DNA of 64,000 bases from IMG/VR virus record IMGVR_UViG_3300045988_039444; one strand, 5' to 3'. The notes beneath the pieces are model-generated. The model was not told the DNA's origin, made no database searches, and was given only the letters and a program-made list of their open reading frames with translations. The position numbers were made by a program, and so were the translations under genes. Below, one piece after another: positions 20,201 through 63,380 of the stretch. The stretch's first letter is position 1. The number at the start of each line of letters is the position of its first letter. The stretch comes from a virus.

Positions 20201-23200
20201 GAATTTTGTTGTTCACGAGTTAAGGCTTCAGTATATACTTTATAAAACTCTTTTGTTAAGTTAAATATTGTATCACTTCCACCAGCTTTTCTGATAATAG
20301 TATCTATAAATTTAGATGTTCCATAAGAATTACCAAAAGCAGAATCATATTGATTAACTCCACTTTCATCAATTCTACCTAATTGGATTCCATGATAAGT
20401 TTCACTATCACCTAAACCAATTCGTTCAATTAATAGTTTCTTACCATTTACATCTAAATTGACATCGACATTACCATCTTTATAAATAACTTCAAATTCC
20501 TGACCTTCGTGTAAAGTTCTTAAAGCATCAAATAATTCAGTAGCCTTGAATTTAACACCATTAACTGTAATGTTGTTCTTAATAACACGAGTTTTAGGAT
20601 TATAATATTCAGGACTTGTGATAATCTTATAAACTTCAGGTGTAAGACGACGTAAACCTTTGAAACCATTAGTTTCAAATTCACGTTGAATATGAGTTTT
20701 GAAGAAATCACTTAAAAACTTACCACGAAGATTTAAGTTACTATCAAGATAAGCACCGTCTGTTGTTTGAATAGGATTAGCAATTCGTTTATTAATAATA
20801 TCAAACAAACGTTTAAGAGCATCAAGTTGTTCTTGTGGAACACCATTCTTACTCATTTGTTGATATATTGTATTAACATTTACATCATTTTTAAAATATT
20901 TAAGTGCATACCAGATAGGTTCATAATATTTGATAACATCATTACGACCATCTGTTTGCTGATATATAGAATCAAGAATATCTTCGTAAGTATAAACGTG
21001 ATTATCAGTAAATATCTGACGACCATCGAGTTTTACAATAGTATTTTCAATAGCATCAAGAGCATTACGCATTGAATCACTAATATAATAACGATAGTCA
21101 TTAGTATTAAACTCATCTCTCGATTCAGTATCATCTATAAAGTCAGAAACACTGTTAGCAAGTACATCAAGACTATTAAGAATAGATACATCATCGTTTA
21201 ATTCAGTACCACTTTCAAAATTATAATATCTCGAAAGAATAGAATAAGCCATTCGAGCATTTCTTAATAAATCAAGAACATTACTTTGACGAACAGCAGT
21301 AATAACATCCACACCAGTAAGATTCAAAGCATCAACATCAGATACCAAATAAGGTTGAATTGATTGAGCTAATGTATGAAGTCTTGTACGAGCAGGAAGA
21401 TTAGGAACAGCACCATATTCTAAAAACTCTTTTGCTAAATTATTTACGGCAGTAGCAAATTCCATAATTTTAGAAGTTTGACTACCAAAGCCATCATCAT
21501 TTACAAGAGCATCATGTAACGGACTATCTTCATCTTGTCTAATAGCACGAATTTTACTAATAAATCTATTCATCACACTATTAATATATGCGATATTAGT
21601 TTTGTAAAATTCAGTTGTACTTTTAGCTACTTCATTAATAATACTATTTTTGAATAGAGTTATCTTATGATAGAAATTTGAATATCTAACAGTATCAAAA
21701 TTACTATTAAGATTTTCAAATTTAATTTGAGTAAGACCTTCAATTTGTGCTCGAATTACATTATGGTCTACATTAATATTCTTAAGAGTTAATTTACCAT
21801 CAGTTATAATATAATTATTGTTAAGAACATTAGCAACGTTAGCAATATAGTCAGTAATAGCTTCACGCATTTTAGCATTTTCCTCTTCACTATAACCAAC
21901 TATATCACCACCGTAAAGATTCCAAATCCAATCTTTGAAAAGATTAGATTTAAGATTATTTGCAATACGGATATTGCTATCTGATAATAACTGTTTTACA
22001 CGATTAGTTTTTTCTAAATTTTCATTACTAATTTCAGTAGGTTGATATTCATTTATCCAACCAATAAAATTACCAATAATAGTAGTTCGTAACGTATTAA
22101 GTTCAGTATTATCAATAGGAGATAATAATGCTTTATAAGTATCACTATTAGAATCAGATAATTCTTTATACAGATTTATAATAGTATCTAAATAATGATT
22201 CTCAAATTTATCTGCTGAAAGTTTATCTTGAATACTATAAAGTGTTTTATAAATAGCATCAAATTTAGTTTGAACTTCACTTCGAATTTCAGTAATATCC
22301 ATACCTGCAAGTTCTTTTGCAGAATATGTATCTTCTTTACCAGTCGAATCATCTTTTATAGTAACCATTACAGCATTAAAATCGGTTTCGTCGTCGGTTA
22401 CGACCTCGATTCTTTGCACGGTTTTGGGCGATTCTGCGACATTAAATTTTGAGCCTACCGAATATACCTTATTTTTAATATCGACGGTATTTGGGGCCTC
22501 GCTGTCATCGAGAGAGTACGAAATCCCGTTACTGTCTGTTAGCACCTCGGTAGTAACATTTTCGGGTTCTTGACTTGCTTCTTGATTAGTAGTTTCAGTA
22601 GTTTCTTCTACTTTATCTTTAGCTTTTTCAATCTCTTCTTGTTTATCATAAACTTCTTTAAGTAACTTACTTCGTTCAGCCATAATCTCATCTCGATTAT
22701 TAACATTTTCTTCGAGAGCCATTACAGCCATACTCAGTTGAGTTCGAGCTTCTTCAAGAGATTTATATGTTTGATTATTGTTATTGCGAGTTTCACGCAA
22801 ACGTTTTGCAGCTTCATTATATTCAGCTACATTGTTATTTTCACGTTCACTCTGTTTTGCAATATCGCTATTAATTCTATTAAGTCTTGCATCGTAATCA
22901 GCTAAATCATTTTCAAATAATTCAATCTTCCTACGAGTATCAGCAATCTCACCATTATGAATAGCAAGTTCTTGTTCGTATTGAAGTTTACCAACTTCTA
23001 ATTCTGCAATAGCTTGACGAGCATTTGCAATTTGTTGTTGAAGACTTAAAATAGATTTCTTACTATTTTTAATTTCAAGAAGATAAGGTTTACGAGCTTT
23101 ACGATTAGGTTGTTTTGTACTAATAGCACCTTGATTAGCAATATAAGTATTTAACTCATCAATTTGAGATTGTAAACCATTGATTGTATCTTCAATAGTT

Positions 23201-42805: not shown

Positions 42806-43606
42806 TTATTTTAATTGAATTTGTTTATAACAATTAGCGTGTATAGTATTCATAAAATTTTCAGCAACTCCGCTATCATCAATAACTAAACCATCTTCAT
42901 AACCTTGTAACTTCATTATCTTTTCCCATTCAGATTTTACTGTCATATAATTATAAACAGTTCTTTGTAAAATACTCATAGCACCTGAATAATTATCATC
43001 TTCAACATCGCTTAATTTAATAAGACTATGAATACAAATTGGTACTATAAAATCAATATTCACCATACCCATAATGCAATTATATACATAAGTGATATAA
43101 TCAGAATCAGTATATATAATTGTTACAATGGAAGGTTTCTTTACTTCTTTTTCTTTAGGTACTAAATCATAATATGTAATCTTAAGAGCAGTAAATCTTC
43201 GAATGATAACATCCAAACTTGCAGTGAGATAATCCAAATTATCATCTGTCATACTTTTAAGTAAGGTGACATTCGGAACAGCATACTTAATATTAGCATT
43301 TGCAGAATTAGTTAAATTATTTATAGTACTAAATATGATAAATACTGGAACTGGTTTTGTACCATTTTTAATATCATTATTAAAAAATAAATGAAGACTA
43401 ACAGATAATTGAGACATATATACACCATGTAAACTTCTATAATTCTTTATAGAAAGTTTAATGTTATTTTCATCACCATTTATATTCAAACTACCATCAG
43501 GTGAACCAATAATATTAAATATAGAATCTATAAGATTACCGAATTGAGCTTGTGTAGGTATTTTACCTGTTTCAAAATATTGTTTAAGCTGACTTTTAGT
43601 TGCCAT
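42806..43606 (-). CDS. Tail-fibre/receptor-binding-like protein, paralog A (266 aa), with the shared N-terminal anchor motif.
   Basis: N-terminus MATKSQLKQYFETGKIPTQAQFGNLIDSI matches the N-termini of the two genes immediately upstream. The C-terminal part is divergent. Confidence 0.7.
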   Translation of the reverse strand: MATKSQLKQYFETGKIPTQAQFGNLIDSIFNIIGSPDGSLNINGDENNIKLSIKNYRSLHGVYMSQLSVSLHLFFNNDIKNGTKPVPVFIIFSTINNLTNSANANIKYAVPNVTLLKSMTDDNLDYLTASLDVIIRRFTALKITYYDLVPKEKEVKKPSIVTIIYTDSDYITYVYNCIMGMVNIDFIVPICIHSLIKLSDVEDDNYSGAMSILQRTVYNYMTVKSEWEKIMKLQGYEDGLVIDDSGVAENFMNTIHANCYKQIQLK

Positions 43607-43653
43607 AAATTTAATTGTATTGTTTACATCAACAATACAATTAAATCAAATAA

Positions 43654-44390
43654 CTATATTGTTGATACATTTACATTATCAAAATAAGTATTACAGATTT
43701 CAGCACAAACATCGTAAGTCATACCAAAATCTTGAGTAAATAAATCTTTACTCAAATCTATAAGATTCGCACTCTCTTTTAATACACCAAAATTATGATG
43801 CGTTACTAGACCTTGGATATTAGAAGCAAACCATTCGTATGTAGTAGGAACATAGATTTCTCTAATATCTATAGCTAAATCCCAAGCAACTTTAGTTTTT
43901 ACACACTTAAAAGTAAAAGTATGAAATTCATTACCTTGGTCTATATAAACTGTTTTAACAAACGTATTACCTATATAATTCCATTGACAAGTTGCAGGAA
44001 TAGCATTTACTAAATCATTATCTGATACATCGTGTATAGATGCACCAGACAATGTATTATTCATTTCTAAAAGTTGTGCATCATTAAGAATTGTATATCT
44101 AAAATAAGCACCACCTTCTAATGGTCTACCACCATTAACTTCGAGAATAATATAAGGAACTATAATACCATTAGATGCATCATAAACACCTAAAAAGATA
44201 TATGTATAATTATCATCAAGAGCTACAAATCTATAACCCCAAACATAAGGAGTACTCGGATTATACAGTTTTAATGTACTGTCCCCCCTGTTAAATCACT
44301 ATTTGGAATTTTATTTATTAAATTTTCAAAATCAGCTTATGTAGGAATTTTCCCAGTTTGAAACAAGTCTTTAATTTGTGCAATAGTCAT
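43654..44390 (-). pseudogene. Disrupted tail-fibre-like gene, paralog C. Either a pseudogene or a phase-variable OFF state.
   Basis: The conserved N-terminus MTIAQIKDLFQTGKIPT is interrupted by in-frame TAA (44339-44337) at the position of the conserved Gln (IPTQ) in paralogs A and B. Beyond that, a frameshift at a G6 tract (44288-44283) separates it from the 136-aa ORF 43654..44064. The sequence after the tract in the +1 frame (DSTLKLY…YIFLGVYDASNG) is homologous to paralog B (DSTDRLY…YFLIGAWDDEIGG). Confidence 0.7.
44283..44288. repeat. Poly-G tract (G6 on the coding strand, C6 on the plus strand) at the frameshift site of paralog C.
   Basis: gtCCCCCCtg. G7 or G10 would restore the frame shared with the downstream 136-aa ORF. 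Confidence 0.8.
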
Positions 44391-44459
44391 AGTAATAATA
44401 GTTAAAGTTTGACATATATTGATTAAACTCTAACTATTATTACTAATAACAGTCAGAGT

Positions 44460-45152
44460 TTAATATAGTAGTTTTTTACTAAATTTACCAGCGTTTTTTA
44501 AATCATTTGCGACAACACTGTCAATAGCAGTCCATTTAGTTTGAGAATTACCAGTACAACGATAAACATATAAATCATTGGAACCACCCATATCAACATC
44601 CATTGCGAAAGCATAACCAACATACCATATACCATTTTGCAATACAGGATAAATACGATATGTTATATTGTTTGATTGAATGGTTCGAGGTGACGGATTA
44701 TTATTAGTAGGTTGTGTGATATTAAACCACGTCCAACCAGAACCTTTAATATTATTAATTAAATCTATTTCATCAGCAGTATTAATATCGCCAACTTCAG
44801 ATTCAAAACGCGCTCTATCTGTTTTATCTAATAAATGATAAGTTATATTAAAATTGGCACCGCTAACAGCATTATCTTGAAAACAAATAACTGCTACAAG
44901 ATAATTACCTCCAATTTCATCATCCCAAGCACCAATTAAAAAATAACTACAATAATCATTATAAATATATCTAAGAGATTTAACATATAGTCTATCGGTA
45001 CTATCTCCATTTCCGAAACCTATTGTTGTATCACCATTCCCCCCCCCCAATGGCATACTCAACATACCATCAATAAGGTTGGCAAAATCAGTTTGAGTTG
45101 GTATAGCACCAGCAACAAATTTTGCTTTTAAAGCAGATTTAGATAAAGCCAT
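44460..45152 (-). CDS. Tail-fibre/receptor-binding-like protein, paralog B (230 aa), containing an in-frame G10 tract.
   Basis: N-terminus MALSKSALKAKFVAGAIPTQTDFANLIDGM. The G10 tract (45048-45039) encodes the GGG of …MPLGGGNGD…. Confidence 0.75.
   Translation of the reverse strand: MALSKSALKAKFVAGAIPTQTDFANLIDGMLSMPLGGGNGDTTIGFGNGDSTDRLYVKSLRYIYNDYCSYFLIGAWDDEIGGNYLVAVICFQDNAVSGANFNITYHLLDKTDRARFESEVGDINTADEIDLINNIKGSGWTWFNITQPTNNNPSPRTIQSNNITYRIYPVLQNGIWYVGYAFAMDVDMGGSNDLYVYRCTGNSQTKWTAIDSVVANDLKNAGKFSKKLLY
45039..45048. repeat. Poly-G homopolymer (G10 on the coding strand) inside paralog B. Candidate slipped-strand contingency tract.
   Basis: ccattCCCCCCCCCCaatgg on the plus strand. It is by far the longest G/C run in a window of about 30% GC. 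Confidence 0.85.
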
Positions 45153-45161
45153 AACTTTTAA

Positions 45162-46877
45162 TTAATTAAGATTAGTAACAATACGTTTAATTTTAGCAAA
45201 CAAACTTTCAGATTTAGTTTCTACTGCAACTTCAACAGGTTCTTCTGATAAAGTTTGAACATCATTAGAACGAGTATTTGGTGTACGACCAACTTGGAAA
45301 ATATAGTGGTCAACACCATCACCTTGTATCTGCATATACCCAATACCATCCGGGCCAGCTGCTTGTGTAACACTAACTGACTTAGAAGTAGCACCAGAAT
45401 AACTTGCAGTTACAGTAGCAGTTTTTGCTCCAATAGGATTATTAGCTGCTGTTAATTTATTACCACTTAATGTAAAACCTCCCGGATTAGTTGTTAAAGC
45501 TAACGTAGGAGTTGCAGATTCAGTAATAGCTGTTCCAATAGAACCAGATGTATAAACAGGAATTTTAGTTCTCGTACAACTTGCTGTAATAGTAGAAGTT
45601 CCACCTGATGCAGCAATAGTTGTAGGATTTGCCGAAATAGCAATATTCCAACTACCGTAATTATAAGATTCAATTTTGTTAGCCGCTTGATAAATATATA
45701 TTGTTCCACTTGCAGATTTACCATTAGCCGACCAAGTAACAGCTTGACTTTTAACAGTAGTTTGAGCTGAAACAGTTGTACCCTTCGAAGAAGCAGTAGC
45801 AGTAATGGAAGATACATTCGGAACAACATTAGCAGTTCCACTTGAAGCAGCTTCAGTAGTAACATCTTTTGTAGCACCAGATGTATATTCGTAAGTAGTA
45901 ATTGTAGCAGATTTATTCCAAGTTTGACTACCATTTCCGGCAGTTGCAGTAGCAGAACCTCCAGATGCAGGAATAGTTTTATTTGAAATAGTACCAGCTA
46001 CAATATTACCGTAAGTATAAATTCCACCAGATATAGACTTAACACTTTCAAGATTTTTCTCTTGATATAAATAATATGTTGTCTTTTTAGAACCCCAAGT
46101 TACTTTAATAGAAGCACTTCTATTGTTTGAATAAATAGTTGTTCCAGCAGAAGGACAAGTCCATGTATGTTTTGCAGAATCCCATGTACCAAAAGTAACA
46201 TTACCAAAGGTACATTCATCACTAACATTAGTTTCAGAACTATCTCCGCTGGTATAATCATATATAGCAAAAGTATAAACCCAAACCGTACCACCGTTAG
46301 CTTTAACAGTATTTTGTCCAGTTAAAGGATTAGAACTTGTATATCTATTAGTTATTTCTCGTAATGTTTGAGAATTAGCTTCTTGTTTAATAACAATATT
46401 TGCAGAAACAGTTTGACCATCGAACGTATTAGAGAACTTGCCAGTTACATTAATACTCCGTTCAGTTCCTACAATAGTAGTTCGATTGCTTGCAGTAACT
46501 GTAACACCAGATATAGAAAATCCAGTAGCACTTCCTGATAGAACTGGAGTAACATTATCTGTACTAACTAAATTACCATTACGATACGTTTTAAGTACAG
46601 CTGTAATATTTGCAGTTCCACCTTTTGCGGCAATTTCAGTATTATCACTACTTAATATTAAATCATATGTATAAACAGATGCTTCTTGTTCAACAGTAAG
46701 AATAACTTGTTTACTGGAATCTTTTTTACACTTTCCAATAAACTGCATACTTCTCTTAGAAGTACCTTTTTGAACAGGTGATGAAATTTTAACAGTCTGA
46801 TTTCCTTGAAAAGAGGGAGATTCAATACTAATTGAATCTCCACTTCCGTCATTCCATTTATTAGTGATAACACTCAT
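45162..46877 (-). CDS. Ser/Thr-rich beta-repeat protein (571 aa) with a BACON-like N-terminal domain and tandem Ig-like repeats. Tail-fibre or decoration candidate.
   Basis: N-terminal …KWNDGSGDSISIESPSFQGNQTVKISS…KQVILTVEQEAS fits the BACON pattern. Repeated A/T/S/G-rich beta segments follow. The C-terminal motif DGIGYMQIQGDGVDHYIFQVG is shared with the 1024-aa protein. Confidence 0.7.
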   Translation of the reverse strand: MSVITNKWNDGSGDSISIESPSFQGNQTVKISSPVQKGTSKRSMQFIGKCKKDSSKQVILTVEQEASVYTYDLILSSDNTEIAAKGGTANITAVLKTYRNGNLVSTDNVTPVLSGSATGFSISGVTVTASNRTTIVGTERSINVTGKFSNTFDGQTVSANIVIKQEANSQTLREITNRYTSSNPLTGQNTVKANGGTVWVYTFAIYDYTSGDSSETNVSDECTFGNVTFGTWDSAKHTWTCPSAGTTIYSNNRSASIKVTWGSKKTTYYLYQEKNLESVKSISGGIYTYGNIVAGTISNKTIPASGGSATATAGNGSQTWNKSATITTYEYTSGATKDVTTEAASSGTANVVPNVSSITATASSKGTTVSAQTTVKSQAVTWSANGKSASGTIYIYQAANKIESYNYGSWNIAISANPTTIAASGGTSTITASCTRTKIPVYTSGSIGTAITESATPTLALTTNPGGFTLSGNKLTAANNPIGAKTATVTASYSGATSKSVSVTQAAGPDGIGYMQIQGDGVDHYIFQVGRTPNTRSNDVQTLSEEPVEVAVETKSESLFAKIKRIVTNLN

Positions 46878-46892
46878 AAATGATTAATTAAT

Positions 46893-47531
46893 TTATTCAG
46901 CAGGTTCGAATGTCCATTCGTCATTCGACAGAATCTTCAGAGTCTGCTCACCACCACCCTTCGGAATAGTAACAGTTGCAGTAGTTGTACCCTGCGAATT
47001 GAGATACAAATAGCTGTCACCAAGAGCCTGAGTAATAGTAATAGTTTTAACAACAGTCGAACCCTCACCCTTGATTTCAAGAGTTGCAGAACGAGCTGTG
47101 ATAGTTTCATTCTTCGGTACAACAACAGTAACATCATAAGTATATTCTCCAGTAGCACCGGGGTCACCAGCAATAGCAGTACCAGATGTAGCTGTTTTAC
47201 TACTATTAACCTTAAATGATGTTACATTTGCAATACCGAAGTTAGTTTTCCATGTAAACGTAAGAAGTTTCGAGTTAGACTTACCAGTTACATGAATTGT
47301 TTCACCACCTTTAGCAACATTAATAGTTAAACCATCGGGAGTGATAAATTCGTCAGCAGCCTTTTCAGTAACTATGACTCTAACTGTGTTAGTCTTTCCG
47401 ACAATCTTACCGGAAATTGCAGTACTTCTATCAGTACGACCAGTATAAGGATTCACAGAATTAATCTTAATCTGTGCATTTCCAGTACCAGTTTTAGGAA
47501 CCCATGATAAATAACTCGGAATAGTTGCCAT
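46893..47531 (-). CDS. BACON/Ig-like domain protein (212 aa).
   Basis: Beta-rich. Two …R(S/T)A(T/I)…G…V(V/R)…ITITQ-type segments (…TVRVIVTEKAA…, …ARSATLEIKGEGSTVVKTITITQALG). Confidence 0.65.
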   Translation of the reverse strand: MATIPSYLSWVPKTGTGNAQIKINSVNPYTGRTDRSTAISGKIVGKTNTVRVIVTEKAADEFITPDGLTINVAKGGETIHVTGKSNSKLLTFTWKTNFGIANVTSFKVNSSKTATSGTAIAGDPGATGEYTYDVTVVVPKNETITARSATLEIKGEGSTVVKTITITQALGDSYLYLNSQGTTTATVTIPKGGGEQTLKILSNDEWTFEPAE

Positions 47532-47566
47532 TTGTTTTTTTTTGGTCGATTAATTATAATAACAAA

Positions 47567-48106: not shown

Positions 48107-51100
48107 TTAATTAGATTCGACATTACCAACCCTAAATATAGGATGTTCAATACCATTACCTTCTATTTGCATATAGTCAATACCATCATTTTCAAATACT
48201 GGTTCAGGTACTAATTCAATAGTTGTAACACTATGATTTGCAAGATTATCATAACTTTGATTATATTCAGTGTAGCCATCACGTCTAACCAAAATTACAA
48301 CCTTTGAATCATAAGTACCACTAATATGAGCTATACCTTGATAATCAGTAACGATAGTTTTAACAGAAGAACTAAACCAACAACTAATACCTGTGGTAAT
48401 AGGAGCTTTAGTAACAGAATCTACAAATTTAAGAGCTATATAATCTTGACCTTCTTTCGGATGTAAATCAATATAATTGACAACAGCTTCAGAAGGTTTA
48501 GCTGCAATAAACAATGCAGGTTCAGTAGCTTCATAACGAGTATCGCCTAAAGTCTTATAATTACGTTCGAAACCAATCGGATTAGCTTCACTAACATAAC
48601 CATCTTCTGATGAATCACAGTTACCTATCTTTTTACCAGTTTCATCATAAATGGTATCACTAATCATGCAACCAGTTAAAGCATCCCGTGTACGAACTTT
48701 AATAAGGCCGTTATTATTACGAAGACATAATATCTCAACTGTTTTATCAGTATCAAATACTACTTCTTCACTACCAATATTATACCAATCAGAAGATAAC
48801 GGTAAAGCATAATAAGTTATAACACTATTTTTATTCTTTGTGATTACCAAAGGTTCATCAGGTCTGGTTGTACCAACAGTAGTTCCAGTACTTGATATTT
48901 CTTTAATATCAGCAGCTAAATAAAGTTTATTACTATCATAAATTTCATAAGCCTTGATGGTTACAGAAACCTCTTCGGGTTCAGGCGGTAACTCTTCAAG
49001 TACAATAGTAACACTATGTTCACCAGTAGAATTAATCGTACCAGTTCCAGTGTTAGTTATATAACCAGTTTTAGAAGCTCGGAAATCAACACTTGTTCCA
49101 ACTGGAGCTGTAATAGCCTCAGATTTACCAGCAGTCAATTCATCATTATTGAGAGGTTTCCAATCACTTTCAGTACTGAGTTTATACTCAAACGTAACAC
49201 CGTCTAAAGCAGTAGATTCAGTATTTACAGCAGTTGCATAGATAGTACCAGATTGAACTGGAACTTTATCCATTTCAACAGTAACTTCTGCGGTAGGAAT
49301 TGCATAAGTTACCAGTTGTTCAACCTCTATATAACCCGACGAAACAAACCTTAAAATTCGGCTCGTATTGACATCTCCGATGAGTTGTAATGGCGTATCT
49401 TTTGTAACTTGACCTAATATACCACCCGTGTCTTTATCATAGACGTATGCGGCTATTTTGGCCTTTGTTTCGCTATCAACTACCGTAAGACTTACAGCAC
49501 CTTGTTCAACCGGTAGAGCAATAAGAGTAATATCACGAATTATATTCTCATCCAACGTAATACGCTCTTCATAAGTTTCATATCCACTTGCACCAACTTG
49601 AATTAAAATATCACGCGGGTCATAAGTTTCATATGTAAGAGTACCAGTACCTTGAGCAATAACTACATTAGAAGGTTTATCAGTAAATATAATTAAAGCA
49701 TTATCAGGAGTTGCATTTACAGTTAATGTCTTTTTAGTCTTAGGTGTAAGAACAACATTAATTGTCGTATCTTCAGCACCTACATCGACATAAACATCTT
49801 TTGTAATGTAATTCTCTTTTTCTACAATATAATGTAAACGACTTTGAATTAAACATTCAAGACTTGCACTGCCAACACCTACCGATTCTTTACCTTCCGA
49901 ATTAATCATTCGTATAGTAGAATCAAACGGAACAGCTTCAATCTTAATTGTTATATAATCTTCTTCATTTCGAGGAATACGAATCCAAAGTGTACCATCT
50001 TCAAACGTAGTAGGAATTTCGCTTGTAACTTCAATTTGATTAATACTGTTGCTACGAACATGATTATTATGTTCTACAACAATACCATAAATCTCATTAA
50101 TAGCATCTACAATACGTTTGTTATCAGTAACAAGTTCTTCAGAAGTTTTATCTTGCTTATTAATAAGCAAACCTTGAAGTTCTTGAGCTTTTTGTTTTAA
50201 TTTCTCAATATCACTTGCGGCTGTTGGTAAACCAACTTGTGCGGCAGTAACTCTATGAGGATTATCATAATTACGAATATGAGCATTGAAATTATCTTTG
50301 TCATTCTCGTAATCTTCTTTATCAAGTTTCTTGTTTATAGCAGCCCAAACATCTTGAAACTTTTTATTAACTTCTGTAACATGATTGTTAATCCAAACAT
50401 TCAACTGTTTGAACCAACCTTTAACCCTATTTTCAAGAGCATCAATGTACTCTTTTTGAGGTCGAGATACAGGTTTATCCATATCGGCAGTGTTATCAAC
50501 ATTGCCAAGACCAACTTGTTCTTTTGTTACCTCATGAGGATTAAACTTATTATTAATATGTTCAAATAAAAGTTTTGTAAGTTGTTCAACAGGATTTAAG
50601 TCCTCAGCTGTAAGCTCACGAACATATACTTGAACATCAAGAATCTCATTAACAGCATCATTAAAATCAAAATTGGTCTTTACATTCGTCCGATAAATCC
50701 ACCAAGATTTACCTTCATGAACATAAATACCAGTAAGAGTAAATATCTGATTACTTATGATACCTTGTACTGTAATTGTATGTATAGAACGAACAATTGG
50801 TACAAGTATATAAAGATATTGTTGAGTTGATTTAACCCACGGAACTTTATATTCATAATGTCCTACATCAATATTTCGAGATTCAAACTCGGTAATCTTT
50901 GCAGAACTAATATCAGATTTTTCAGTTAGCTTAAATAGAGCACTATTATCGTAAGCAGTTACATTAGTTAAGTCTATTTCAATCCTCTCCTTTGTCCTAT
51001 ATAAATATAGGTGGCCGTTTTTTCGATAGTACATATATAATGTAGGAACTGTTTTAACACCAGCACCTTCACCATCTACTGTACCAATATATTCTCCGGT

Positions 51101-51181
51101 TTGGCCATTATAAACACTCGGATATACACCATCTTCAAGCACACCGAGCGCTACAACATTTCGAAGATTAATTACTGCCAT
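48107..51181 (-). CDS. Tail fibre / receptor-binding protein (1024 aa).
   Basis: Two copies of the tail-fibre-type motif NPH-VT-x2-QVGL (NPHEVTKEQVGLGNVDNTADMDKPVS and NPHRVTAAQVGLPTAASDIE). Ig-like beta repeats. The C-terminal motif DGIDYMQIEGNGIEHPIFRVG is shared with the 571-aa protein. Confidence 0.75.
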   Translation of the reverse strand: MAVINLRNVVALGVLEDGVYPSVYNGQTGEYIGTVDGEGAGVKTVPTLYMYYRKNGHLYLYRTKERIEIDLTNVTAYDNSALFKLTEKSDISSAKITEFESRNIDVGHYEYKVPWVKSTQQYLYILVPIVRSIHTITVQGIISNQIFTLTGIYVHEGKSWWIYRTNVKTNFDFNDAVNEILDVQVYVRELTAEDLNPVEQLTKLLFEHINNKFNPHEVTKEQVGLGNVDNTADMDKPVSRPQKEYIDALENRVKGWFKQLNVWINNHVTEVNKKFQDVWAAINKKLDKEDYENDKDNFNAHIRNYDNPHRVTAAQVGLPTAASDIEKLKQKAQELQGLLINKQDKTSEELVTDNKRIVDAINEIYGIVVEHNNHVRSNSINQIEVTSEIPTTFEDGTLWIRIPRNEEDYITIKIEAVPFDSTIRMINSEGKESVGVGSASLECLIQSRLHYIVEKENYITKDVYVDVGAEDTTINVVLTPKTKKTLTVNATPDNALIIFTDKPSNVVIAQGTGTLTYETYDPRDILIQVGASGYETYEERITLDENIIRDITLIALPVEQGAVSLTVVDSETKAKIAAYVYDKDTGGILGQVTKDTPLQLIGDVNTSRILRFVSSGYIEVEQLVTYAIPTAEVTVEMDKVPVQSGTIYATAVNTESTALDGVTFEYKLSTESDWKPLNNDELTAGKSEAITAPVGTSVDFRASKTGYITNTGTGTINSTGEHSVTIVLEELPPEPEEVSVTIKAYEIYDSNKLYLAADIKEISSTGTTVGTTRPDEPLVITKNKNSVITYYALPLSSDWYNIGSEEVVFDTDKTVEILCLRNNNGLIKVRTRDALTGCMISDTIYDETGKKIGNCDSSEDGYVSEANPIGFERNYKTLGDTRYEATEPALFIAAKPSEAVVNYIDLHPKEGQDYIALKFVDSVTKAPITTGISCWFSSSVKTIVTDYQGIAHISGTYDSKVVILVRRDGYTEYNQSYDNLANHSVTTIELVPEPVFENDGIDYMQIEGNGIEHPIFRVGNVESN

Positions 51182-57690: not shown

Positions 57691-60015
57691 TCATTGCTTT
57701 AACTCTTTTTGTAACTTTATTCTATTAACATCAGAAGCAGTGTAACCAGATTGAGCAGCCATAGCTTCATCTTTATCTATATTACCATTTCCATTGGTAT
57801 CGACTTTAAGTCGCATATTCCAAATCTCTTTTTCACCTTCTTGTTTAAGAATCTCAAGATTAACATCATGTTCTCTATCAAGAGCATTTTGTTGAGCTTC
57901 AAATTCTTGTTTAGCTGCTTCACGCTGACTAACAATTTGTTCAACTTCTGCTTGAGCTTGTTGTTGAACTTGTTGCATTTGAAGTTCATAATCTCGACGA
58001 GCTTGAATAGCTTTCTTAATATTCTTAGCAATAGAAGTAATATTATTATTTTCAATAGCTTCAATAGCAACTTCCAGTTGGTCATTCTGACCTGCGCTAA
58101 AAGCAAGTTCTTTCATCATATTCAGCTTATTCTGAACATCGGCATTATTACGAATATAAATTCCAATATTACCAGAGAAATCAGAAGAACCATCAATATC
58201 AACTACAACAACTTTATTAGTTGTCGGGTCTACATAAGAACCTCGTTTACCGTCAATCCAAGCAAACTTACTGTAATCAATATTTGCAACATAATCACGT
58301 TCACGGAAGAGATTAAAACATTCAAGACTCCAAACACTTCCGGTCATTGCTTGAGAATAATTCGATTCATTAACAGCCTTACCTGCATAATCTTTAGCAT
58401 CACCAAAGCGAGCATTATTCATATTAGCTGCTTCCCAAGCTTCTGCTTTCAAACCTTGCTTAAGATTATCAAGCATTTGAATATAATTCGTAATAGCACT
58501 TGTAGCTACTTCTCGAATAGATTGTAAAGCATTAGGTTGTGCATCAGAATCATCAAACGGTAAGAAACTATCTTTATTCGCAACAGCAAGACGTTCCTCG
58601 GTAGTCATGTCACTACTATCAGCGAGAATACTTTCAGGGAATAATAGCCAAGACTTAAACTTAGCTACTGCACGTTCTTGTTGTAAAGTATAAATACGAT
58701 AAAGAGCAAGATAAGGTAAAACACGGAAAGGAATAGGATTACGAAGATTATCTTTATGTAAACCTACAATACCATTATAAGGTAATTTACAATCACTATA
58801 ATTGTTAAATCTTTCACGTTGAACTTCGATAGGTCGCGGCTTAATATAAATACCACTATGACAACCACCTATACGCCAACCTTCCCAAACTTGATTTATC
58901 CATTCCCATTCAATTTCAATATCACCAGCGGAAGTATCAAATTCATAATTTTCGTCTACAACACTTTCAACGATATTTCCTAATAAATCTCGATGTTTAA
59001 GAATACCTTGTTTAATTTCAGTTTTCCAAACATAATGATAAATATCAATTTCTTTACCATATAATCGAGCTTCACTACGAAGTGCTTCTGCGTTAGTATG
59101 TAAGATAGCTTTACGTTCAGCAAAATCTGTTTTATTGAAGATTTGAACTATACCATCGGGAGCATCATATTTAGGAGATACAGTATAAATATCTTTAAGA
59201 TAATTCATTTCTGCATCTGTAAGTTCATCACGAAATCTATCAATGATTTGAGGAATAGTCATTCGATAGACACGAAGTCCTGCATCATCATCTTCAATAT
59301 ATCGTTGACCACTTTCAATACGATAATATTCGAGAGGAGATATTACTTGAAGATAAACATCACCTTTATAAACTTCTCGATAAGTATAAACCTCTTCACA
59401 AGCCCACCAATAGAAATAGCATTGTTGATATTTGTCTTTTGCTTCAACAATAGTATTGATAAGTTCAAGACGCTTTTGAGTTGTAATAGTTACATCATCA
59501 ATCCAATCGTTAAGAACTTCCTCAATAATATCGTTAAGTTCACCTTGCTTAATTGTCTTTTGACCAGTATTAAATCCTGCTTCATTAAGACGATTAATAA
59601 TTTCTTGATTACAATAAGCCATTACTTTATCAGCAAGAACTTTATTGCGAGCAAGAGTTACAGAAGGGTCATTATTAAATACTTGATAATTAGAGAACAT
59701 ATTAATAAATTCTCCCATATATCGTTCTTTAATAGGAGTGAGAAAATCTACATCACGTATCTCACCATACATGACAGCTTTCTCACCAACCTTATCAATA
59801 TAATTCCGAAGAACATATTCATAAGTTTTAGGGTCTACTAAACCATTAGCAGCATCAAGAAATTTCTGCGTAACAGTTTTATCATTCTGACCAATAGCAA
59901 GATTAATCCAATAATTACAATTAGGAATGTACCAAGCTTTCGTTTGTTTTGTAGCAGTACTTGCACGCTGGTCAGGCATAACAAGTGGAGTTGCTCTTAA
60001 ATCACGTTCACTCAT
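57691..60015 (-). CDS. Portal protein candidate (774 aa).
   Basis: Size, a Q-rich helical C-terminus (…QMQQVQQQAQAEVEQIVSQREAAKQEFEAQQ…) and position directly downstream of the terminase-like gene, with a 4-nt overlap. Confidence 0.5.
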   Translation of the reverse strand: MSERDLRATPLVMPDQRASTATKQTKAWYIPNCNYWINLAIGQNDKTVTQKFLDAANGLVDPKTYEYVLRNYIDKVGEKAVMYGEIRDVDFLTPIKERYMGEFINMFSNYQVFNNDPSVTLARNKVLADKVMAYCNQEIINRLNEAGFNTGQKTIKQGELNDIIEEVLNDWIDDVTITTQKRLELINTIVEAKDKYQQCYFYWWACEEVYTYREVYKGDVYLQVISPLEYYRIESGQRYIEDDDAGLRVYRMTIPQIIDRFRDELTDAEMNYLKDIYTVSPKYDAPDGIVQIFNKTDFAERKAILHTNAEALRSEARLYGKEIDIYHYVWKTEIKQGILKHRDLLGNIVESVVDENYEFDTSAGDIEIEWEWINQVWEGWRIGGCHSGIYIKPRPIEVQRERFNNYSDCKLPYNGIVGLHKDNLRNPIPFRVLPYLALYRIYTLQQERAVAKFKSWLLFPESILADSSDMTTEERLAVANKDSFLPFDDSDAQPNALQSIREVATSAITNYIQMLDNLKQGLKAEAWEAANMNNARFGDAKDYAGKAVNESNYSQAMTGSVWSLECFNLFRERDYVANIDYSKFAWIDGKRGSYVDPTTNKVVVVDIDGSSDFSGNIGIYIRNNADVQNKLNMMKELAFSAGQNDQLEVAIEAIENNNITSIAKNIKKAIQARRDYELQMQQVQQQAQAEVEQIVSQREAAKQEFEAQQNALDREHDVNLEILKQEGEKEIWNMRLKVDTNGNGNIDKDEAMAAQSGYTASDVNRIKLQKELKQ

Positions 60016-63000
60016 TTTAGGAATCTATTAACTTTACGACCAGTGTTATTAGTTTTACTTTTCGAGTTAGCTTCTCGTTCAAGTAAAAGAGAATCTTTAC
60101 GAAATTCAAACATTGCAACGATAGCCGAACTTAATCGGTCTGCATTACGTCCAAATATAAATCTATCCAACTCTAATAAGAAACTTATATCATAAATTTG
60201 ATTAAATCTATATATTGGTGTATCGTCGGACGTTTTTCCGACAATTTCGTATAAGAAATCCCGCACCATACGCATACCTTCCAACTTAATATCGCCATCA
60301 CCAATGACAATACCATAACCTGTAATACGAGGGCCATCAACACTACGATTAATATAACTACTTGGGTCTTTTAATAACTTATCTCTATAACCCCATTTCT
60401 TGAAATTAGTAACAAGTTCACCAGTACCAGCCTCATAAAGAACTTTACAATTCCAACGTAAACAAGCATAAAGAACAAGTTTATCGACAGCTTCCATAGT
60501 ATCAAGACGACCACAATAAGAAGCAACAAGTCGTTTACCCATGTAAGGAGTTTTGCTGTTAGTACGCATCCACACTTGAAAACTTGCAAGTGAATTTTTT
60601 GTACTAACTTCTTCTTTATTTTTATCTACACGATATGGGTCATAAGAAATAAAATAAAGACTACCATCATTTGGAATAGGAGAATAAAATTCTCTTATAC
60701 AACCATGAACATCAGTCTTTGAATTATGAGGTACATCAGTTATATATTCATGGAATCTATCGGAACCAAATATAGTTCGTTCAATACATTCCTGTTTAGT
60801 AATAAATCTAACACGTCCATCATCAAGTATATACCAACCATCTTCATAAAAATGATTAGACTTATCATATTTAATAGCGTTAATATGATTAGTAAGTTCC
60901 GGACTGTGAAAAATGTTCTCTTGTGTGTTCGTAAATGCCTCATTAGGACTGTTAGCACGTTGACCTACATAAATATTATATTCACCAGCATCTTTCTCTT
61001 TTTCTGCACCACGTTTCTTATCATAATCATCCTTCCAAGAAGCAAACAGTAAAGAATTACCATCTTCTATAAAAGGTTCATAATCCCATATCTGCGGAAA
61101 AAAGAAACCACAAACAGCATGTCTACTATTAGCATCCCAGATATTTTCCATAGGAAGCATATCATTCTTTCCGGGATTATAAAAACAATTACTGAAAGCT
61201 TCCCAGTTAGCACCTTTTGTACCACCCGTACCATATACACGAATAGTACCAATTCGCATTGCACCTGATTCACTATTAGACATCATAACATCTAATGCCT
61301 TTTGAAGATTAGGACAGTTATGAGTAATAGTAAAATCTTCTAATAATACAAGATTATCACCATCTACTTCAAATCCATAATATCTACCTCGACCAATAGG
61401 TTTAATATCAAATCGAGTTTCCAATACATTCTTTTGTAATGAAATATAATTTTCTGCTTTTTTACGATTTATTTTAGTAGGAATTAAATGACAACCAGAT
61501 AAAATAAAAATTCTATAATAAGTAACACCTCTTATAATCTTTTCTGAAACAGTGGTTTTCAATCCAAGACTTCTACAAATATAAACAATATCATAAACAA
61601 TTGCAGGGTCTTTTTGAGCTATTTCAAAATTATGTTTTTTAGAATTATAAGAACCATCAGTGTCAATAATACCAGCTAAAAATTCTAATCTACTTTGTTT
61701 ATCAGTATAAATGTACTCTTTTGGAATATATTTATTATGAAGAACTCCCATATTAAAAAGTTCTTGTCTAAACCAATTATCCGAAGCATCTTCACATTTT
61801 ACTAATGTAATTCTTTTAGCATTAGAATTAGTATCTGCAATCGAATAATCAAGATTATTATTTTTTGAATATTCTTTTAAATAATCAATTACTTCACTAT
61901 CTTCATTGGTAAATCTACATGTATCTTTATCTCCATCACCAATCCATAATCCAAAAACATAAGGTTCAATTTTAACATTCTTTTTATCAAAATCAATACA
62001 TGTTTTTATAAGAGCATGATTATCTTTCCAGCGAGGATGTTCTTTAATCATATTTATATAATCTGGAGCAGTCATAGTAATCGGTTTACATATATTACCA
62101 TAACTTTTCCTATAAATCATATAAATATCATGCTTACTATTTACAACATGAGATTCACCATTTAAAGGAGTAACTTCGTATAAATCATCTTCACCATTTA
62201 TAGTAGCTAATACTGTACGAGGATTTCCGTCAGGTCCCATAAGTTTATCACCTACTTTAATATCTTGAACAAATTTAATTTGTCCATCAGACATTATAAA
62301 ACCAGTATTTTCCCCAAAACATTTACCTGCTTCCTCAAAATCAGTTTCAATAGCTTTCTTACCTACTGCGGCACTTTCATTTTTACCAATAGCAACACTT
62401 AAAAGTTTACTACGAAATCCGAAAGCCTTTTGACCTTCTTTTGATTTCTTATATCCAAGTTCAATACCTTTATCAAAGTTCTCACTTAGATAACCTCTTC
62501 GCCAATAAGTTTTATCTTCATACCAATCAAGATTAACTTTAACCATATAAGATGTAGCACCTTTTTCAGTTAAGTAATCCATTTGGTCAGCAGCAAGTGT
62601 AACGGTTACATTCTTATTTGCGTTAATAGTATTAGCTGCTTGACTACCACGTTTATATGAAAAACCTTTACGACGAGCTTTTGCCTTACATAAGTTACAA
62701 CTATTGTTAGCAATCAGCTCGTCAATCTTAAAGTTCCAATAATCTCCATCCCAAAATCGAGGAAAGCCTTCAACAGTATTAACCTTAAATCTTCCCTCTT
62801 TATCTAACTGTTTACGTTCCTTTTCATTAGGAGCACGTTCGATACGACCATAATTGAGATAATTATAATGGTCGCCAGTTATACGAACTTTATGAAGTAA
62901 AGACTTACGTTCAGCATCAGATTTGGCTGCTAAATAAGCAGGAATATCTTTAATGTATAATTTACAATATGCTTGAACACCTTTAACTCGTCTATCCATT

Positions 63001-63380
63001 TCACGTTGCCAAAACTTTATGGCATTAGGACTATCATCAGGTTCAAGACAATAACATCCATGTTTTTCATAAAAGTCTGCAACACGACTAAATATTTCAG
63101 TACCTACGAAAACAAAGTCTATTTTCATAAGTACACCACCACTTTCACCTATAAGAAAATCGTTATCTCTGTCAATCCAAGGTTTACCAGTAAAACGACA
63201 AATACTTGAAGATAAAGGCTTGTAACTTTCTTTATCTTCAAGTATATAATCTATAAACGGACTTCGACCAGTTTCATAACCATAACGATTGTCTTTACGA
63301 TAATGTTTCTGTTTCGTTAGGAGCGTTAGATGCTCTATCATTTGTTCCGTCATAGCTATCTCTATATTCAGCTCCACCAC
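60012..63380 (-). CDS. Terminase large subunit-like protein (1122 aa precursor) interrupted by a 335-aa intein.
   Basis: Position next to the portal-like gene. The C-terminal region has RNase-H-like acidic motifs (LYFISYDPYRVD…, KVLYEAGTGE). Removing the intein gives about 787 aa. The ATPase Walker A motif was not confidently located by eye. Confidence 0.5.
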   Translation of the reverse strand: MVELNIEIAMTEQMIEHLTLLTKQKHYRKDNRYGYETGRSPFIDYILEDKESYKPLSSSICRFTGKPWIDRDNDFLIGESGGVLMKIDFVFVGTEIFSRVADFYEKHGCYCLEPDDSPNAIKFWQREMDRRVKGVQAYCKLYIKDIPAYLAAKSDAERKSLLHKVRITGDHYNYLNYGRIERAPNEKERKQLDKEGRFKVNTVEGFPRFWDGDYWNFKIDELIANNSCNLCKAKARRKGFSYKRGSQAANTINANKNVTVTLAADQMDYLTEKGATSYMVKVNLDWYEDKTYWRRGYLSENFDKGIELGYKKSKEGQKAFGFRSKLLSVAIGKNESAAVGKKAIETDFEEAGKCFGENTGFIMSDGQIKFVQDIKVGDKLMGPDGNPRTVLATINGEDDLYEVTPLNGESHVVNSKHDIYMIYRKSYGNICKPITMTAPDYINMIKEHPRWKDNHALIKTCIDFDKKNVKIEPYVFGLWIGDGDKDTCRFTNEDSEVIDYLKEYSKNNNLDYSIADTNSNAKRITLVKCEDASDNWFRQELFNMGVLHNKYIPKEYIYTDKQSRLEFLAGIIDTDGSYNSKKHNFEIAQKDPAIVYDIVYICRSLGLKTTVSEKIIRGVTYYRIFILSGCHLIPTKINRKKAENYISLQKNVLETRFDIKPIGRGRYYGFEVDGDNLVLLEDFTITHNCPNLQKALDVMMSNSESGAMRIGTIRVYGTGGTKGANWEAFSNCFYNPGKNDMLPMENIWDANSRHAVCGFFFPQIWDYEPFIEDGNSLLFASWKDDYDKKRGAEKEKDAGEYNIYVGQRANSPNEAFTNTQENIFHSPELTNHINAIKYDKSNHFYEDGWYILDDGRVRFITKQECIERTIFGSDRFHEYITDVPHNSKTDVHGCIREFYSPIPNDGSLYFISYDPYRVDKNKEEVSTKNSLASFQVWMRTNSKTPYMGKRLVASYCGRLDTMEAVDKLVLYACLRWNCKVLYEAGTGELVTNFKKWGYRDKLLKDPSSYINRSVDGPRITGYGIVIGDGDIKLEGMRMVRDFLYEIVGKTSDDTPIYRFNQIYDISFLLELDRFIFGRNADRLSSAIVAMFEFRKDSLLLEREANSKSKTNNTGRKVNRFLK
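61317..62321 (-). other. Intein (Hint domain plus a double-LAGLIDADG homing endonuclease) inside the terminase-like gene.
   Basis: Starts with Cys (…EEAGK|CFGENTGFIMSDGQIKFVQDIKVGDKL, block A) and has a block B T/H segment (EVTPLNGESHVV). Two LAGLIDADG motifs (YVFGLWIGDGD and EFLAGIIDTDGS). Ends …LLEDFTITHN|C with His-Asn followed by a +1 Cys. Confidence 0.8.

What the first reader, a model, noticed from the sequence alone, without database searches (positions are those of the whole stretch)
44283..45048. Poly-G tracts at homologous positions of two fibre paralogs: G10 in frame (ON), G6 out of frame (OFF). Candidate slipped-strand phase variation
Paralog B carries a G10 run (45048-45039, coding strand) encoding the GGG of the Gly linker …MPLGGGNGD…. 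It is immediately followed by DSTDRLY…. Paralog C carries a G6 run (44288-44283) at the equivalent linker position. With G6 the frame terminates (…TGGTVH*). With G7 or G10 the frame continues as …TGGG-DSTLKLYNPSTPYVWGYRFVALDDNYTYIFLGVYDASNG…, straight into the 136-aa ORF 43654-44064. That continuation is clearly homologous to the post-tract sequence of paralog B (DSTDRLYVKSLRYIYNDYCSYFLIGAWDDEIGG). G6 versus G10 differ by 4, which is not a multiple of 3, exactly as expected for ON and OFF states of the same contingency tract. Long G runs are otherwise absent from this AT-rich window. This points to phase-variable expression of receptor-binding proteins in a phage, by polymerase slippage during replication or transcription.
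Basis: partly seen in the sequence, partly recalled or inferred. Interest (0 to 1): 0.85.

Follow-up and report, generated by a model that had tools for sequence, protein, structure and literature searches.

The report
Poly-G switches in crAss-phage fibre genes
Two neighbouring tail-fibre-like genes of an uncultured human-gut crAss-like phage each carry a run of G's whose length differs between almost identical phages and decides whether the gene is in frame, which points to a mutational on/off switch of a kind so far described only in Campylobacter phages.

Summary
The G10 (45039-45048) and G6 (44283-44288) runs are real. They are the only G/C runs of 6 or more in the 64 kb window. They sit in the linker between a conserved N-terminal tail-fibre motif and a variable C-terminal domain of two tandem paralogs. 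In about 90 related human-gut metagenome loci both tracts are nearly always present, with longest pure G runs of 2-12. All 105 runs of G7 or more in 580 kb lie in these genes. Tract length differs between loci with 0-1 substitutions in 570 nt. Only about one third of copies are in frame (B 31 of 85, C 21 of 74), and frame state shows no phylogenetic signal. Out-of-frame copies mostly keep about 200 open codons downstream (about 49 stops expected, none seen). The tract-less third paralog and the upstream gene are almost always intact. C is therefore doubly disrupted here, not simply OFF. The mechanism is known from Fletchervirus phages. I found no report of it in Crassvirales. Read-level heterogeneity and receptor binding remain untested.

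The parts
44460..45152 (-). Paralog B, a 230-aa tail-fibre-like gene that is in frame (ON) in this window
   Evidence: Intact ORF. Full-length homologues are abundant in metagenomes: 704 proteins at E<=1e-5, all unnamed. The AF2 model has N-terminal helices at 5-31, a disordered linker at 31-55 and a beta-rich domain at 56-230.
45039..45048 (-). Poly-G tract of B (G10), encoding the Gly residues of the linker ...MPLGGGN...
   Evidence: The same site in 85 loci has a longest pure G run of 4-12. In the uninterrupted context G10 is ON (8 copies) and G6, G8 and G9 are OFF (27 copies).
45060..45152 (-). N-terminal anchor of B (codons 1-31, K..F..G.IPTQ..F..LI motif), shared by paralogs A, B and C
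   Evidence: Alignments. The profile matches the N-terminus of the AfpX13 tail fibre 8uur_A (E 1.9e-4) and 'Tail fiber protein' 9qgo_A (E 0.02). pN is 0.017 and pS 0.12, against pN 0.24 and pS 0.30 for the C-domain.
43654..44390 (-). Paralog C, disrupted in this window. It comprises the start at 44390, a TAA at codon 18, the G6 tract, a frame-0 stop at 44271-44273, and a 209-codon downstream frame at 43657-44283 with its stop at 43654-43656.
   Evidence: The natural intact allele is in L016 (246 aa).
44283..44288 (-). Poly-G tract of C (G6), out of frame. G4, G7 or G10 would join the two frames.
   Evidence: The same site in 74 loci has a longest pure G run of 2-10, with 21 ON and 51 OFF.
44337..44339 (-). 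In-frame TAA nonsense codon at codon 18 of C (CAA in relatives), a second lesion
   Evidence: One search shows it shared only by L012, L018, L022 and L035. TAA is the main stop codon and no suppressor tRNA is in the window.
42806..43606 (-). Paralog A, 266 aa, with the same N-terminal anchor but no G tract (constitutive member of the set)
   Evidence: In 55 related copies the longest G run in the linker is 2, and 50 of 52 complete copies are intact.
45162..46877 (-). Upstream 571-aa tail-block gene, used as the control for frameshift errors
   Evidence: At least 500 codons are open in 67 of 68 loci.

Best explanation
The window is part of an uncultured human-gut crAss-like phage. Its closest classified relative is Kahucivirus intestinalis (Crevaviridae). 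At the end of its tail-fibre block lie three tandem paralogs, each built from a conserved roughly 30-residue N-terminal tail-fibre motif, a flexible linker and a divergent C-terminal domain. In two of them (B and C) the linker is encoded by a run of G's that uses the otherwise avoided GGG codon.

The run is a hypermutable simple-sequence repeat. Slipped-strand mispairing during phage DNA replication adds or removes G's, so each gene moves among three frames. One frame gives the full fibre protein. The other two end 2-7 codons after the tract. A phage population would then be a mixture of virions with different sets of fibre C-domains on top of the constitutive paralog A. This is a bet-hedging device against variable host surfaces.

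What is shown: the tracts, their frame consequences, their length variation between near-identical natural genomes, and preservation of the downstream frames. What is inferred: replication slippage as the cause, reversibility within a lineage, virion incorporation and receptor binding.

In this particular window B is ON (G10). C is OFF (G6) and has also acquired a nonsense codon, so C is here probably a recently dead or locked-off copy.
For: Specificity. All 105 runs of G7 or more in 580 kb of related loci fall in the B tract, the C tract or a third site in an alternative third paralog, and there are no runs of C7 or more. GGG is 1.8% of Gly codons.

Hypermutability. L055, L078 and L085 differ at 0-1 of 570 nt downstream but carry G10, G9 and G8. 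L001 and L025 differ by 1 mismatch in 7743 nt plus one indel, which is the B tract. In W vs L012, L055 vs L078 and L064 vs L065 the only indels are in the tracts. The tract differs in 31% of pairs below 0.5% divergence and in 94% of pairs at 0.5-2%.

Frame state. B is ON in 31 and OFF in 54 copies. C is ON in 21, OFF in 51 and cut by the contig end in 2. The joint states are OFF/OFF 33, ON/OFF 16, OFF/ON 14 and ON/ON 4. At least 23 ON/OFF changes are needed on a 74-tip tree, equal to the shuffled expectation of 22.7 +/- 1.9.

Function retained. 50 of 54 OFF B copies and 40 of 51 OFF C copies keep at least 150 open codons downstream or run off the contig end. About 1000 substitutions occurred on the tree of the B C-domain with no stop codon, against about 49 expected.

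Controls. Tract-less paralog A is intact in 50 of 52 copies and the upstream gene in 67 of 68.

Other support. The tract encodes a low-confidence linker between two structured parts. The N-terminal motif matches tail fibres. PHROG tail-fibre and collar hits occur in the 1024-aa protein upstream, and a BACON domain in the 212-aa protein. A precedent exists: Fletchervirus phages carry 7-11 G tracts in receptor-binding protein genes (PMC12633550, read; PMC11959909, read).
Against: No reads were available, so heterogeneity within one population and the switching rate are unmeasured. The ON fraction is close to the neutral one third. In uninterrupted tracts ON is even rarer (B 8 of 35, C 1 of 18), so there is no sign of selection for ON at the consensus level. 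pN/pS of the B C-domain is about 0.8-1.0 by Nei-Gojobori, against 0.60 for the neighbouring gene. That ratio alone does not show purifying selection and fits either diversifying or relaxed selection. The C-terminal domains have no recognisable fold or family (Pfam none, Foldseek PDB TM below 0.3), so receptor binding is not demonstrated. Many loci are not independent samples; L002 and L034 are identical over the 4866 nt they share. In this window C has a second lesion.
Confidence: 0.78

Rival explanations
1. Recoding rather than switching. The G run, made of rare GGG codons, is a slippery site for ribosomes or RNA polymerase. Full-length protein would then be made from any genomic tract length, and tract length would tune the amount of fibre rather than turn it on or off.
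For: The consensus frame is essentially random (about one third ON) while downstream frames are preserved, which is what one expects if the genomic frame hardly matters. GGG is a rare codon, and on a homopolymer a P-site tRNA can re-pair after a shift of +1 or -1 (established knowledge of frameshifting, not tested here).
Against: Both wrong frames occur (32 and 22 of the OFF B copies), so no single programmed shift would serve. No stable RNA structure follows either tract (z +0.68 and +0.09), and there is no Rfam frameshift element. OFF alleles with interrupted, poorly slippery tracts (pure run of 5 or fewer: 7 in B, 19 in C) would not be rescued. This rival does not explain why tract length itself changes so fast at the DNA level.
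Confidence: 0.12
2. Decaying pseudogenes. B and C are redundant fibre copies being lost, and the G run is merely where the inactivating frameshifts happen to occur.
For: Most copies are out of frame. pN/pS is near 1. In the window's own lineage C also carries a nonsense codon, all five members are out of frame, and the tracts are short (G3-G6). For this copy, decay is probably true. A few OFF B copies have short downstream frames: L003, L004, L024 and L035.
Against: The tract and the roughly 200-codon downstream frame are kept across lineages down to about 50% amino-acid identity, with no stops where about 49 are expected. ON and OFF are interspersed on the tree. ON/ON pairs evolve like OFF/OFF pairs. 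The G run is maintained against a 98% codon bias. Hundreds of full-length 229-230-aa proteins exist in metagenomes.
Confidence: 0.05
3. Homopolymer sequencing or assembly error. The genes are simple in-frame genes and the frameshifts are artefacts.
For: Homopolymers are a known weak point of sequencing. Several contigs have low coverage, 1.3-3x.
Against: The loci are mostly Illumina/SPAdes contigs. OFF alleles occur at 10-66x coverage: L032 and L071 (B and C), L061 (C). The neighbouring 1.7-kb gene is intact in 67 of 68 loci and paralog A in 50 of 52. OFF alleles include many with pure runs of only 4-6 G interrupted by A or T. The window's G6 and its relatives' G5, G6 and GAGGG all agree on OFF.
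Confidence: 0.03

Closest known systems
Hypermutable polyG tracts in receptor-binding protein genes of Campylobacter Fletchervirus phages (Sorensen et al. 2021, Cell Rep 35:109214, as summarised in PMC12633550 and PMC11959909)
   Same: G runs of similar length (7-11) lie inside phage genes of the host-recognition module. Length changes shift the frame. Several genes per genome carry a tract, giving mixed progeny. The host group has phase-variable surface structures.
   Different: The phage order (Crassvirales, podovirus-like, human-gut metagenome source) and the proteins are unrelated. B has no tblastn match in 50,697 GenBank phage records. Here the tract always sits in the linker just after a conserved N-terminal anchor of tandem paralog cassettes. 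No experiment exists, and receptor binding is not shown.
Bacterial contingency loci (poly-G/C tracts in Neisseria, Haemophilus and Campylobacter surface genes)
   Same: A homopolymer lies within the ORF. Many sequenced alleles are OFF with intact downstream frames. Tract length is decoupled from phylogeny. The tract is maintained against codon bias.
   Different: Here the tracts are located in a virus and replicated by the phage's own machinery. The switching rate is not measured.
Contingency loci of coliphages T2/T4 (Gomez, Barrick & Waters 2025 preprint, PMC12633550)
   Same: Reversible frameshifts at short homopolymers in phage genes, used as bet-hedging.
   Different: Those loci are short runs (6 or more) scattered over many gene classes. 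That study found them under-represented in tail-fibre genes. Here long G runs are confined to fibre genes.
Other phage tropism-switching devices: invertible tail-fibre segments of Mu/P1, and diversity-generating retroelements (Bordetella BPP-1; DGRs in Zeta crAss-like phages, PMC12386605)
   Same: The same presumed purpose: a population with alternative tail-fibre specificities.
   Different: The mechanisms differ (site-specific inversion, or reverse-transcriptase mutagenesis). I made no targeted search for an invertase or reverse transcriptase, so their absence from the fibre block is not established.

Membership tests
SSR-mediated phase-variable (contingency) locus | Homopolymer or short repeat inside the ORF or promoter, long enough to slip (usually 7 or more) | tested here: met
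   B has G10 in the ORF. C has only G6 in this window, but C tracts reach G10 and runs of G7-G10 are common in relatives.
SSR-mediated phase-variable (contingency) locus | Length changes that are not multiples of 3 switch the gene between full-length and truncated product | tested here: met
   In-silico G4-G11 series for C. Natural alleles of B: G10 is ON, and G6, G8 and G9 are OFF with stops 2-7 codons after the tract.
SSR-mediated phase-variable (contingency) locus | Tract length is polymorphic between otherwise near-identical genomes (mutation rate far above background) | tested here: met
   Pairs with 0-1 differences in 570 nt carry G10, G9 or G8. The only indels in 4-8 kb alignments are in the tracts.
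SSR-mediated phase-variable (contingency) locus | Reversible, high-frequency switching within a clonal population | not testable with these tools
   No reads or cultures were available. Indirect evidence only: frame state has no phylogenetic signal (23 changes observed, 22.7 expected from shuffles).
SSR-mediated phase-variable (contingency) locus | OFF alleles remain functional genes (downstream ORF under selection) | tested here: inconclusive
   There is a strong deficit of stop codons (0 observed, about 49 expected). But pN/pS is about 0.8-1.0.
Fletchervirus-type polyG receptor-binding proteins | The tract-bearing genes encode receptor-binding proteins | tested here: inconclusive
   The N-terminal motif matches AfpX13 and a 'Tail fiber protein' (E 1.9e-4 and 0.02), and the genes close the tail-fibre block. 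The C-domain has no Pfam, PHROG or PDB assignment.
Fletchervirus-type polyG receptor-binding proteins | Sequence homology to the Fletchervirus proteins | tested here: not met
   tblastn of B against 50,697 phage records gave no match at E<=1e-3. The similarity is one of mechanism, not of descent.
Programmed ribosomal frameshift site | One fixed shift direction, and a stimulatory RNA structure downstream | tested here: not met
   Both wrong frames occur (32 vs 22). Downstream folds are no better than shuffles. No Rfam hit.
Stop-codon reassignment (as in some crAss-like phages) | In-frame stops at conserved sense positions across many genes, with a suppressor tRNA | tested here: not met
   ORFs of 4392 and 2658 aa are uninterrupted under code 11. 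TAA ends 19 of 27 genes. No tRNA is in the window. The TAA occurs only in one sub-lineage of C.
Crassvirales (near Crevaviridae) | crAss-type major capsid protein, portal and TerL, and giant tail/RNAP-region ORFs | tested here: met
   The MCP is 72% identical to Kahucivirus intestinalis cr127_1. PHROG hits to MCP, portal and TerL. Giant ORFs.

The most novel reading that the evidence does not exclude
A whole clade of abundant human-gut crAss-like phages uses two to three independently switching poly-G tracts, each placed between a constant tail-fibre anchor and an exchangeable C-terminal domain. This would generate 4-8 virion types per burst, with most genomes carrying the optional fibres OFF. 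It would be the phage-side counterpart of capsule phase variation in Bacteroidales, and the first contingency-locus system in Crassvirales. A further twist is not excluded: rare-codon GGG runs may also allow leaky ribosomal or transcriptional slippage, so that tract length sets fibre stoichiometry rather than a strict on/off state.
Probability: 0.55. Interest if true: 0.8.

Novelty: new member of a known kind. Interest (0 to 1): 0.7.

Why it matters
crAss-like phages are the most abundant phages of the human gut. They persist for years alongside hosts that vary their surface by phase variation, and so far only the host side of that variation has been described. If these phages switch their own fibre genes through hypermutable G tracts, that would help explain stable coexistence and apparent host-range breadth.

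There are practical consequences too. 'Frameshifted' fibre genes in crAss-like assemblies should not be discarded as pseudogenes or errors. Gene callers split these genes: the window's 136-aa ORF 43654-44064 is a fragment of C. The claim is directly testable with data that already exist, by counting tract lengths in raw reads of public gut metagenomes. It would also extend phage poly-G phase variation, described in a 2025 review as an 'exceptional case' in Fletchervirus, to an unrelated and ecologically dominant order.

Tried and rejected
- Megablast of the fibre block and of an 8-kb structural block against 50,697 GenBank phages gave no match. Only the MCP protein placed the phage.
- Pfam and PHROG scans of A, B and C gave nothing except a 25-residue N-terminal PHROG hit of unknown function.
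- phmmer of B against PDB gave only weak hits. The useful one (AfpX13) was confirmed with a profile of the anchors.
- The AF2 model of B (pLDDT 72.7) was searched with Foldseek. PDB gave no credible fold (TM below 0.3). BFVD gave only uncharacterised proteins of another crAss-like virus.
- Stop-codon reassignment as an explanation of the TAA was rejected.
- Programmed frameshifting was tested by RNA folding and Rfam, with nothing found.
- dN/dS was meant to prove purifying selection on OFF copies. It came out near 1 for ON and OFF alike and 0.6 for the control gene. I treat it as uninformative and used the deficit of stop codons instead.
- Two literature searches with the stem 'crass' returned only Neurospora, Crassostrea and similar, and were wasted. 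Targeted searches found no paper linking crAss-like phages with homopolymer or poly-G variation.
- Within-sample heterogeneity could not be addressed, because no read data are reachable.
Full report
**What is in the window**

On the minus strand, ORF 44460-45152 (paralog B, 230 aa) contains a run of ten G's at 45039-45048, read as ...SMPLGGGNGD.... About 760 nt downstream, a second gene (paralog C) starts at 44390 and contains six G's at 44283-44288. With six G's the frame ends at ...TGGTVH*. With four, seven or ten it continues for 209 codons to the stop at 43654-43656, absorbing the 136-aa ORF 43654-44064. A third paralog (A, 42806-43606, 266 aa) follows. The three share an N-terminal motif, K..F..G.IPTQ..F..LI, and diverge after it.

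The two G runs are the only G or C runs of six or more in 64 kb. From base composition one expects 2.3 runs of six or more, but only 0.0023 of ten or more. GGG makes up 1.8% of glycine codons in the window's genes. The only in-frame GGG-GGG pairs are in B.

Codon 18 of paralog C is TAA (44337-44339), at the Gln of the IPTQ motif. TAA is the usual stop codon here (19 of 27 genes). The giant ORFs are uninterrupted under the standard bacterial code, and no tRNA gene is present. So this is a genuine nonsense codon.

**What kind of genome it is**

The window has crAss-type genes for the major capsid protein, portal and large terminase, followed by ORFs of 1024, 1424, 2658 and 4392 aa on one strand. 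Its capsid protein is 72% identical to that of Kahucivirus intestinalis cr127_1 (Crassvirales, Crevaviridae), and no closer record exists among 50,697 GenBank phages. Related contigs are about 90 kb and come from human-gut metagenomes.

B, C and A close a block that contains a 1024-aa protein with PHROG tail-fibre and collar hits and a BACON-domain protein. A profile of the shared N-terminal motif matches the N-terminus of the AfpX13 tail fibre (8uur_A, E 1.9e-4) and of a 'Tail fiber protein' (9qgo_A, E 0.02).

An AlphaFold model of B (pLDDT 72.7) has two N-terminal helices, a low-confidence linker containing the tract-encoded glycines, and a beta-rich C-terminal domain. That domain resembles nothing solved. 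'Tail-fibre-like' is therefore reasonable. 'Receptor-binding' is an inference.

**Comparative test**

I fetched 9 IMG/VR loci and 80 metagenome loci that encode relatives of B, 580 kb in all including the window's own 12-kb stretch, and later 24 more through the anchor motif. The results were as follows.

1. A G tract is present at the same linker position in nearly every B copy (longest pure run 4-12) and in most C copies (up to G10; a few C copies have no tract), often interrupted by a single A or T.
2. All 105 runs of seven or more G's fall in the B tract, the C tract or a third site inside an alternative third paralog. There is no run of seven or more C's.
3. Tract length changes much faster than anything else.
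   - L055, L078 and L085 differ at 0-1 of 570 downstream positions but carry G10, G9 and G8.
   - L001 and L025 differ by one mismatch in 7.7 kb plus one indel, which is the B tract.
   - In several other near-identical pairs the only indels are in the tracts, plus one intergenic poly-A.
4. Only 31 of 85 B copies and 21 of 74 C copies are in frame. Both wrong frames are used. The joint states are 33 OFF/OFF, 16 ON/OFF, 14 OFF/ON and 4 ON/ON.
5. On a tree of the B C-domains at least 23 ON/OFF changes are needed, the same as when states are shuffled among tips (22.7 +/- 1.9).
6. Out-of-frame copies are not decaying. 50 of 54 OFF B copies keep at least 150 open codons downstream or run off the contig end. 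About 1000 substitutions on the tree produced no stop codon where about 49 would be expected.
7. Controls: paralog A, whose linker has no G run longer than two, is intact in 50 of 52 complete copies. The upstream 571-aa gene is intact in 67 of 68 loci.
8. Its downstream part differs from the window's at 2 of 627 nt.

**Interpretation**

These are the hallmarks of simple-sequence contingency loci:
- a homopolymer kept against codon bias;
- a frame-dependent product;
- tract length uncoupled from phylogeny;
- many OFF alleles with intact downstream frames;
- a tract-free paralog that never shows frameshifts.

Slipped-strand mispairing during replication is the established cause of such variation, and the variation is visible here at the DNA level.

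Three things are not shown: heterogeneity and reversibility within one population, incorporation of B and C into virions, and an effect on host range.

Sequencing error is unlikely for several reasons.
- The loci are mostly Illumina/SPAdes contigs.
- OFF alleles occur at 10-66x coverage.
- Neighbouring genes are intact.
- Many OFF alleles have pure runs of only 4-6 G.

Plain pseudogenisation does not fit the preserved frames or the interspersed ON and OFF states.

A recoding alternative cannot be excluded as an additional layer. On this view, ribosomal or transcriptional slippage on rare GGG codons would make the genomic frame partly irrelevant. It would explain why the ON fraction is close to the neutral one third. 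Against it, both wrong frames occur, no stimulatory RNA structure follows the tracts, and interrupted OFF alleles would not be rescued.

A weak point of the main explanation is that pN/pS of the B C-domain is about 0.8-1.0, against 0.6 for the neighbouring gene. This fits either diversifying or relaxed selection.

**This window specifically**

B is ON (G10). C is OFF by frame and also carries the TAA. The TAA is shared with L012, L018, L022 and L035. All five are out of frame and have short tracts (G6, G5, GAGGG, G6, G5), while their 209-codon downstream frames are still open and differ from the window's by only 1-3 substitutions in 627 nt. In this sub-lineage C looks like a recently killed or locked-off copy, not a reversible OFF state. 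A is the constitutive member.

**Relation to what is known**

The same device is described for Campylobacter Fletchervirus phages, with G tracts of 7-11 in receptor-binding protein genes that yield mixed progeny (Sorensen et al. 2021, as cited in PMC12633550 and PMC11959909). A 2025 review calls that case exceptional. A 2025 preprint reports contingency loci in T2/T4 and found short repeats under-represented in tail-fibre genes.

The proteins here are unrelated to any GenBank phage protein detectable by tblastn. I found no paper linking crAss-like phages with homopolymer or poly-G variation. I therefore file this as a new member of a known kind: the same mechanism in an unrelated and ecologically dominant phage order. 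Its distinctive layout is an anchor, a tract and an exchangeable domain in tandem cassettes.

**Scores**

Interest is 0.7. The mechanism has a precedent. The comparative evidence is unusually clean. The host system (gut Bacteroidales-type phages) is one where phage-side variation has been missing. The claim can be tested at once on public reads.

Noticed in passing
window 47535-47543 (T9 on + strand, A9 on the coding minus strand): A poly-A run lies 3 nt (CAA) upstream of the ATG of the BACON-domain gene 46893-47531. It is A8 to A15 in 32 related loci and differs between near-identical loci. It may be a second hypervariable homopolymer, in a 5' leader, or it may be sequencing noise at a long A run.
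   Followed up: partly
L003 8349-8357; also L016, L022, L035, L073, L082: A third poly-G site (G7-G9) lies inside the C-terminal half of an alternative 363-aa third paralog (...FINGGGSLTV...). G9 is in frame in four loci. G8 and aG7 truncate the protein at 270 aa in two loci.
   Followed up: partly
L099-L114 (IMG/VR loci found through the anchor motif): Further anchor types (MAKINK.../MTKINK..., MTLAQIK...) carry G7-G10 tracts at the same linker position, several of them out of frame. MATK-type paralogs never carry a tract. The design extends over a wider clade of AT-rich crAss-like contigs.
   Followed up: partly
window 45060-45152 versus 44460-45038, and the same parts in the loci: The N-terminal anchor of B is far more conserved than the C-domain, even at synonymous sites (pN 0.017 and pS 0.12, against pN 0.24 and pS 0.30). 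L014 has a C-type N-terminus joined to an A-type body. This suggests cassette exchange by recombination within the anchors.
   Followed up: partly
window 48107-51181 and 45162-46877 (C-terminal ends): The 1024-aa and 571-aa tail proteins share a C-terminal motif, GI(D/G)YMQI(E/Q)G(N/D)G(I/V)(E/D)H.IF(R/Q)VG. It may be a common docking or assembly element.
   Followed up: no
window 43613-43642: A perfect 12-bp inverted repeat (AATTGTATTGTT ... AACAATACAATT, 6-nt loop) lies between the stop of paralog C and the start of paralog A. It is not conserved in L001, L002, L003 or L008, the loci where this region was compared. The only Rfam hit in the region overlaps part of it and is chance (E 0.72).
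   Followed up: no
window 60012-63380: The ORF holding the large terminase is 1122 aa from a GTG start, but TerL profiles cover only residues about 350-1110. The N-terminal 350 residues are unexplained; they could reflect a misplaced start, a fusion or an insertion.
   Followed up: no
window 4114-17292 and 17296-25272: Two giant uninterrupted ORFs (4392 and 2658 aa) have no PHROG match for the one tested. They are typical of the crAss-like region that encodes virion RNA polymerase and cargo proteins, and they show that the standard code applies.
   Followed up: no
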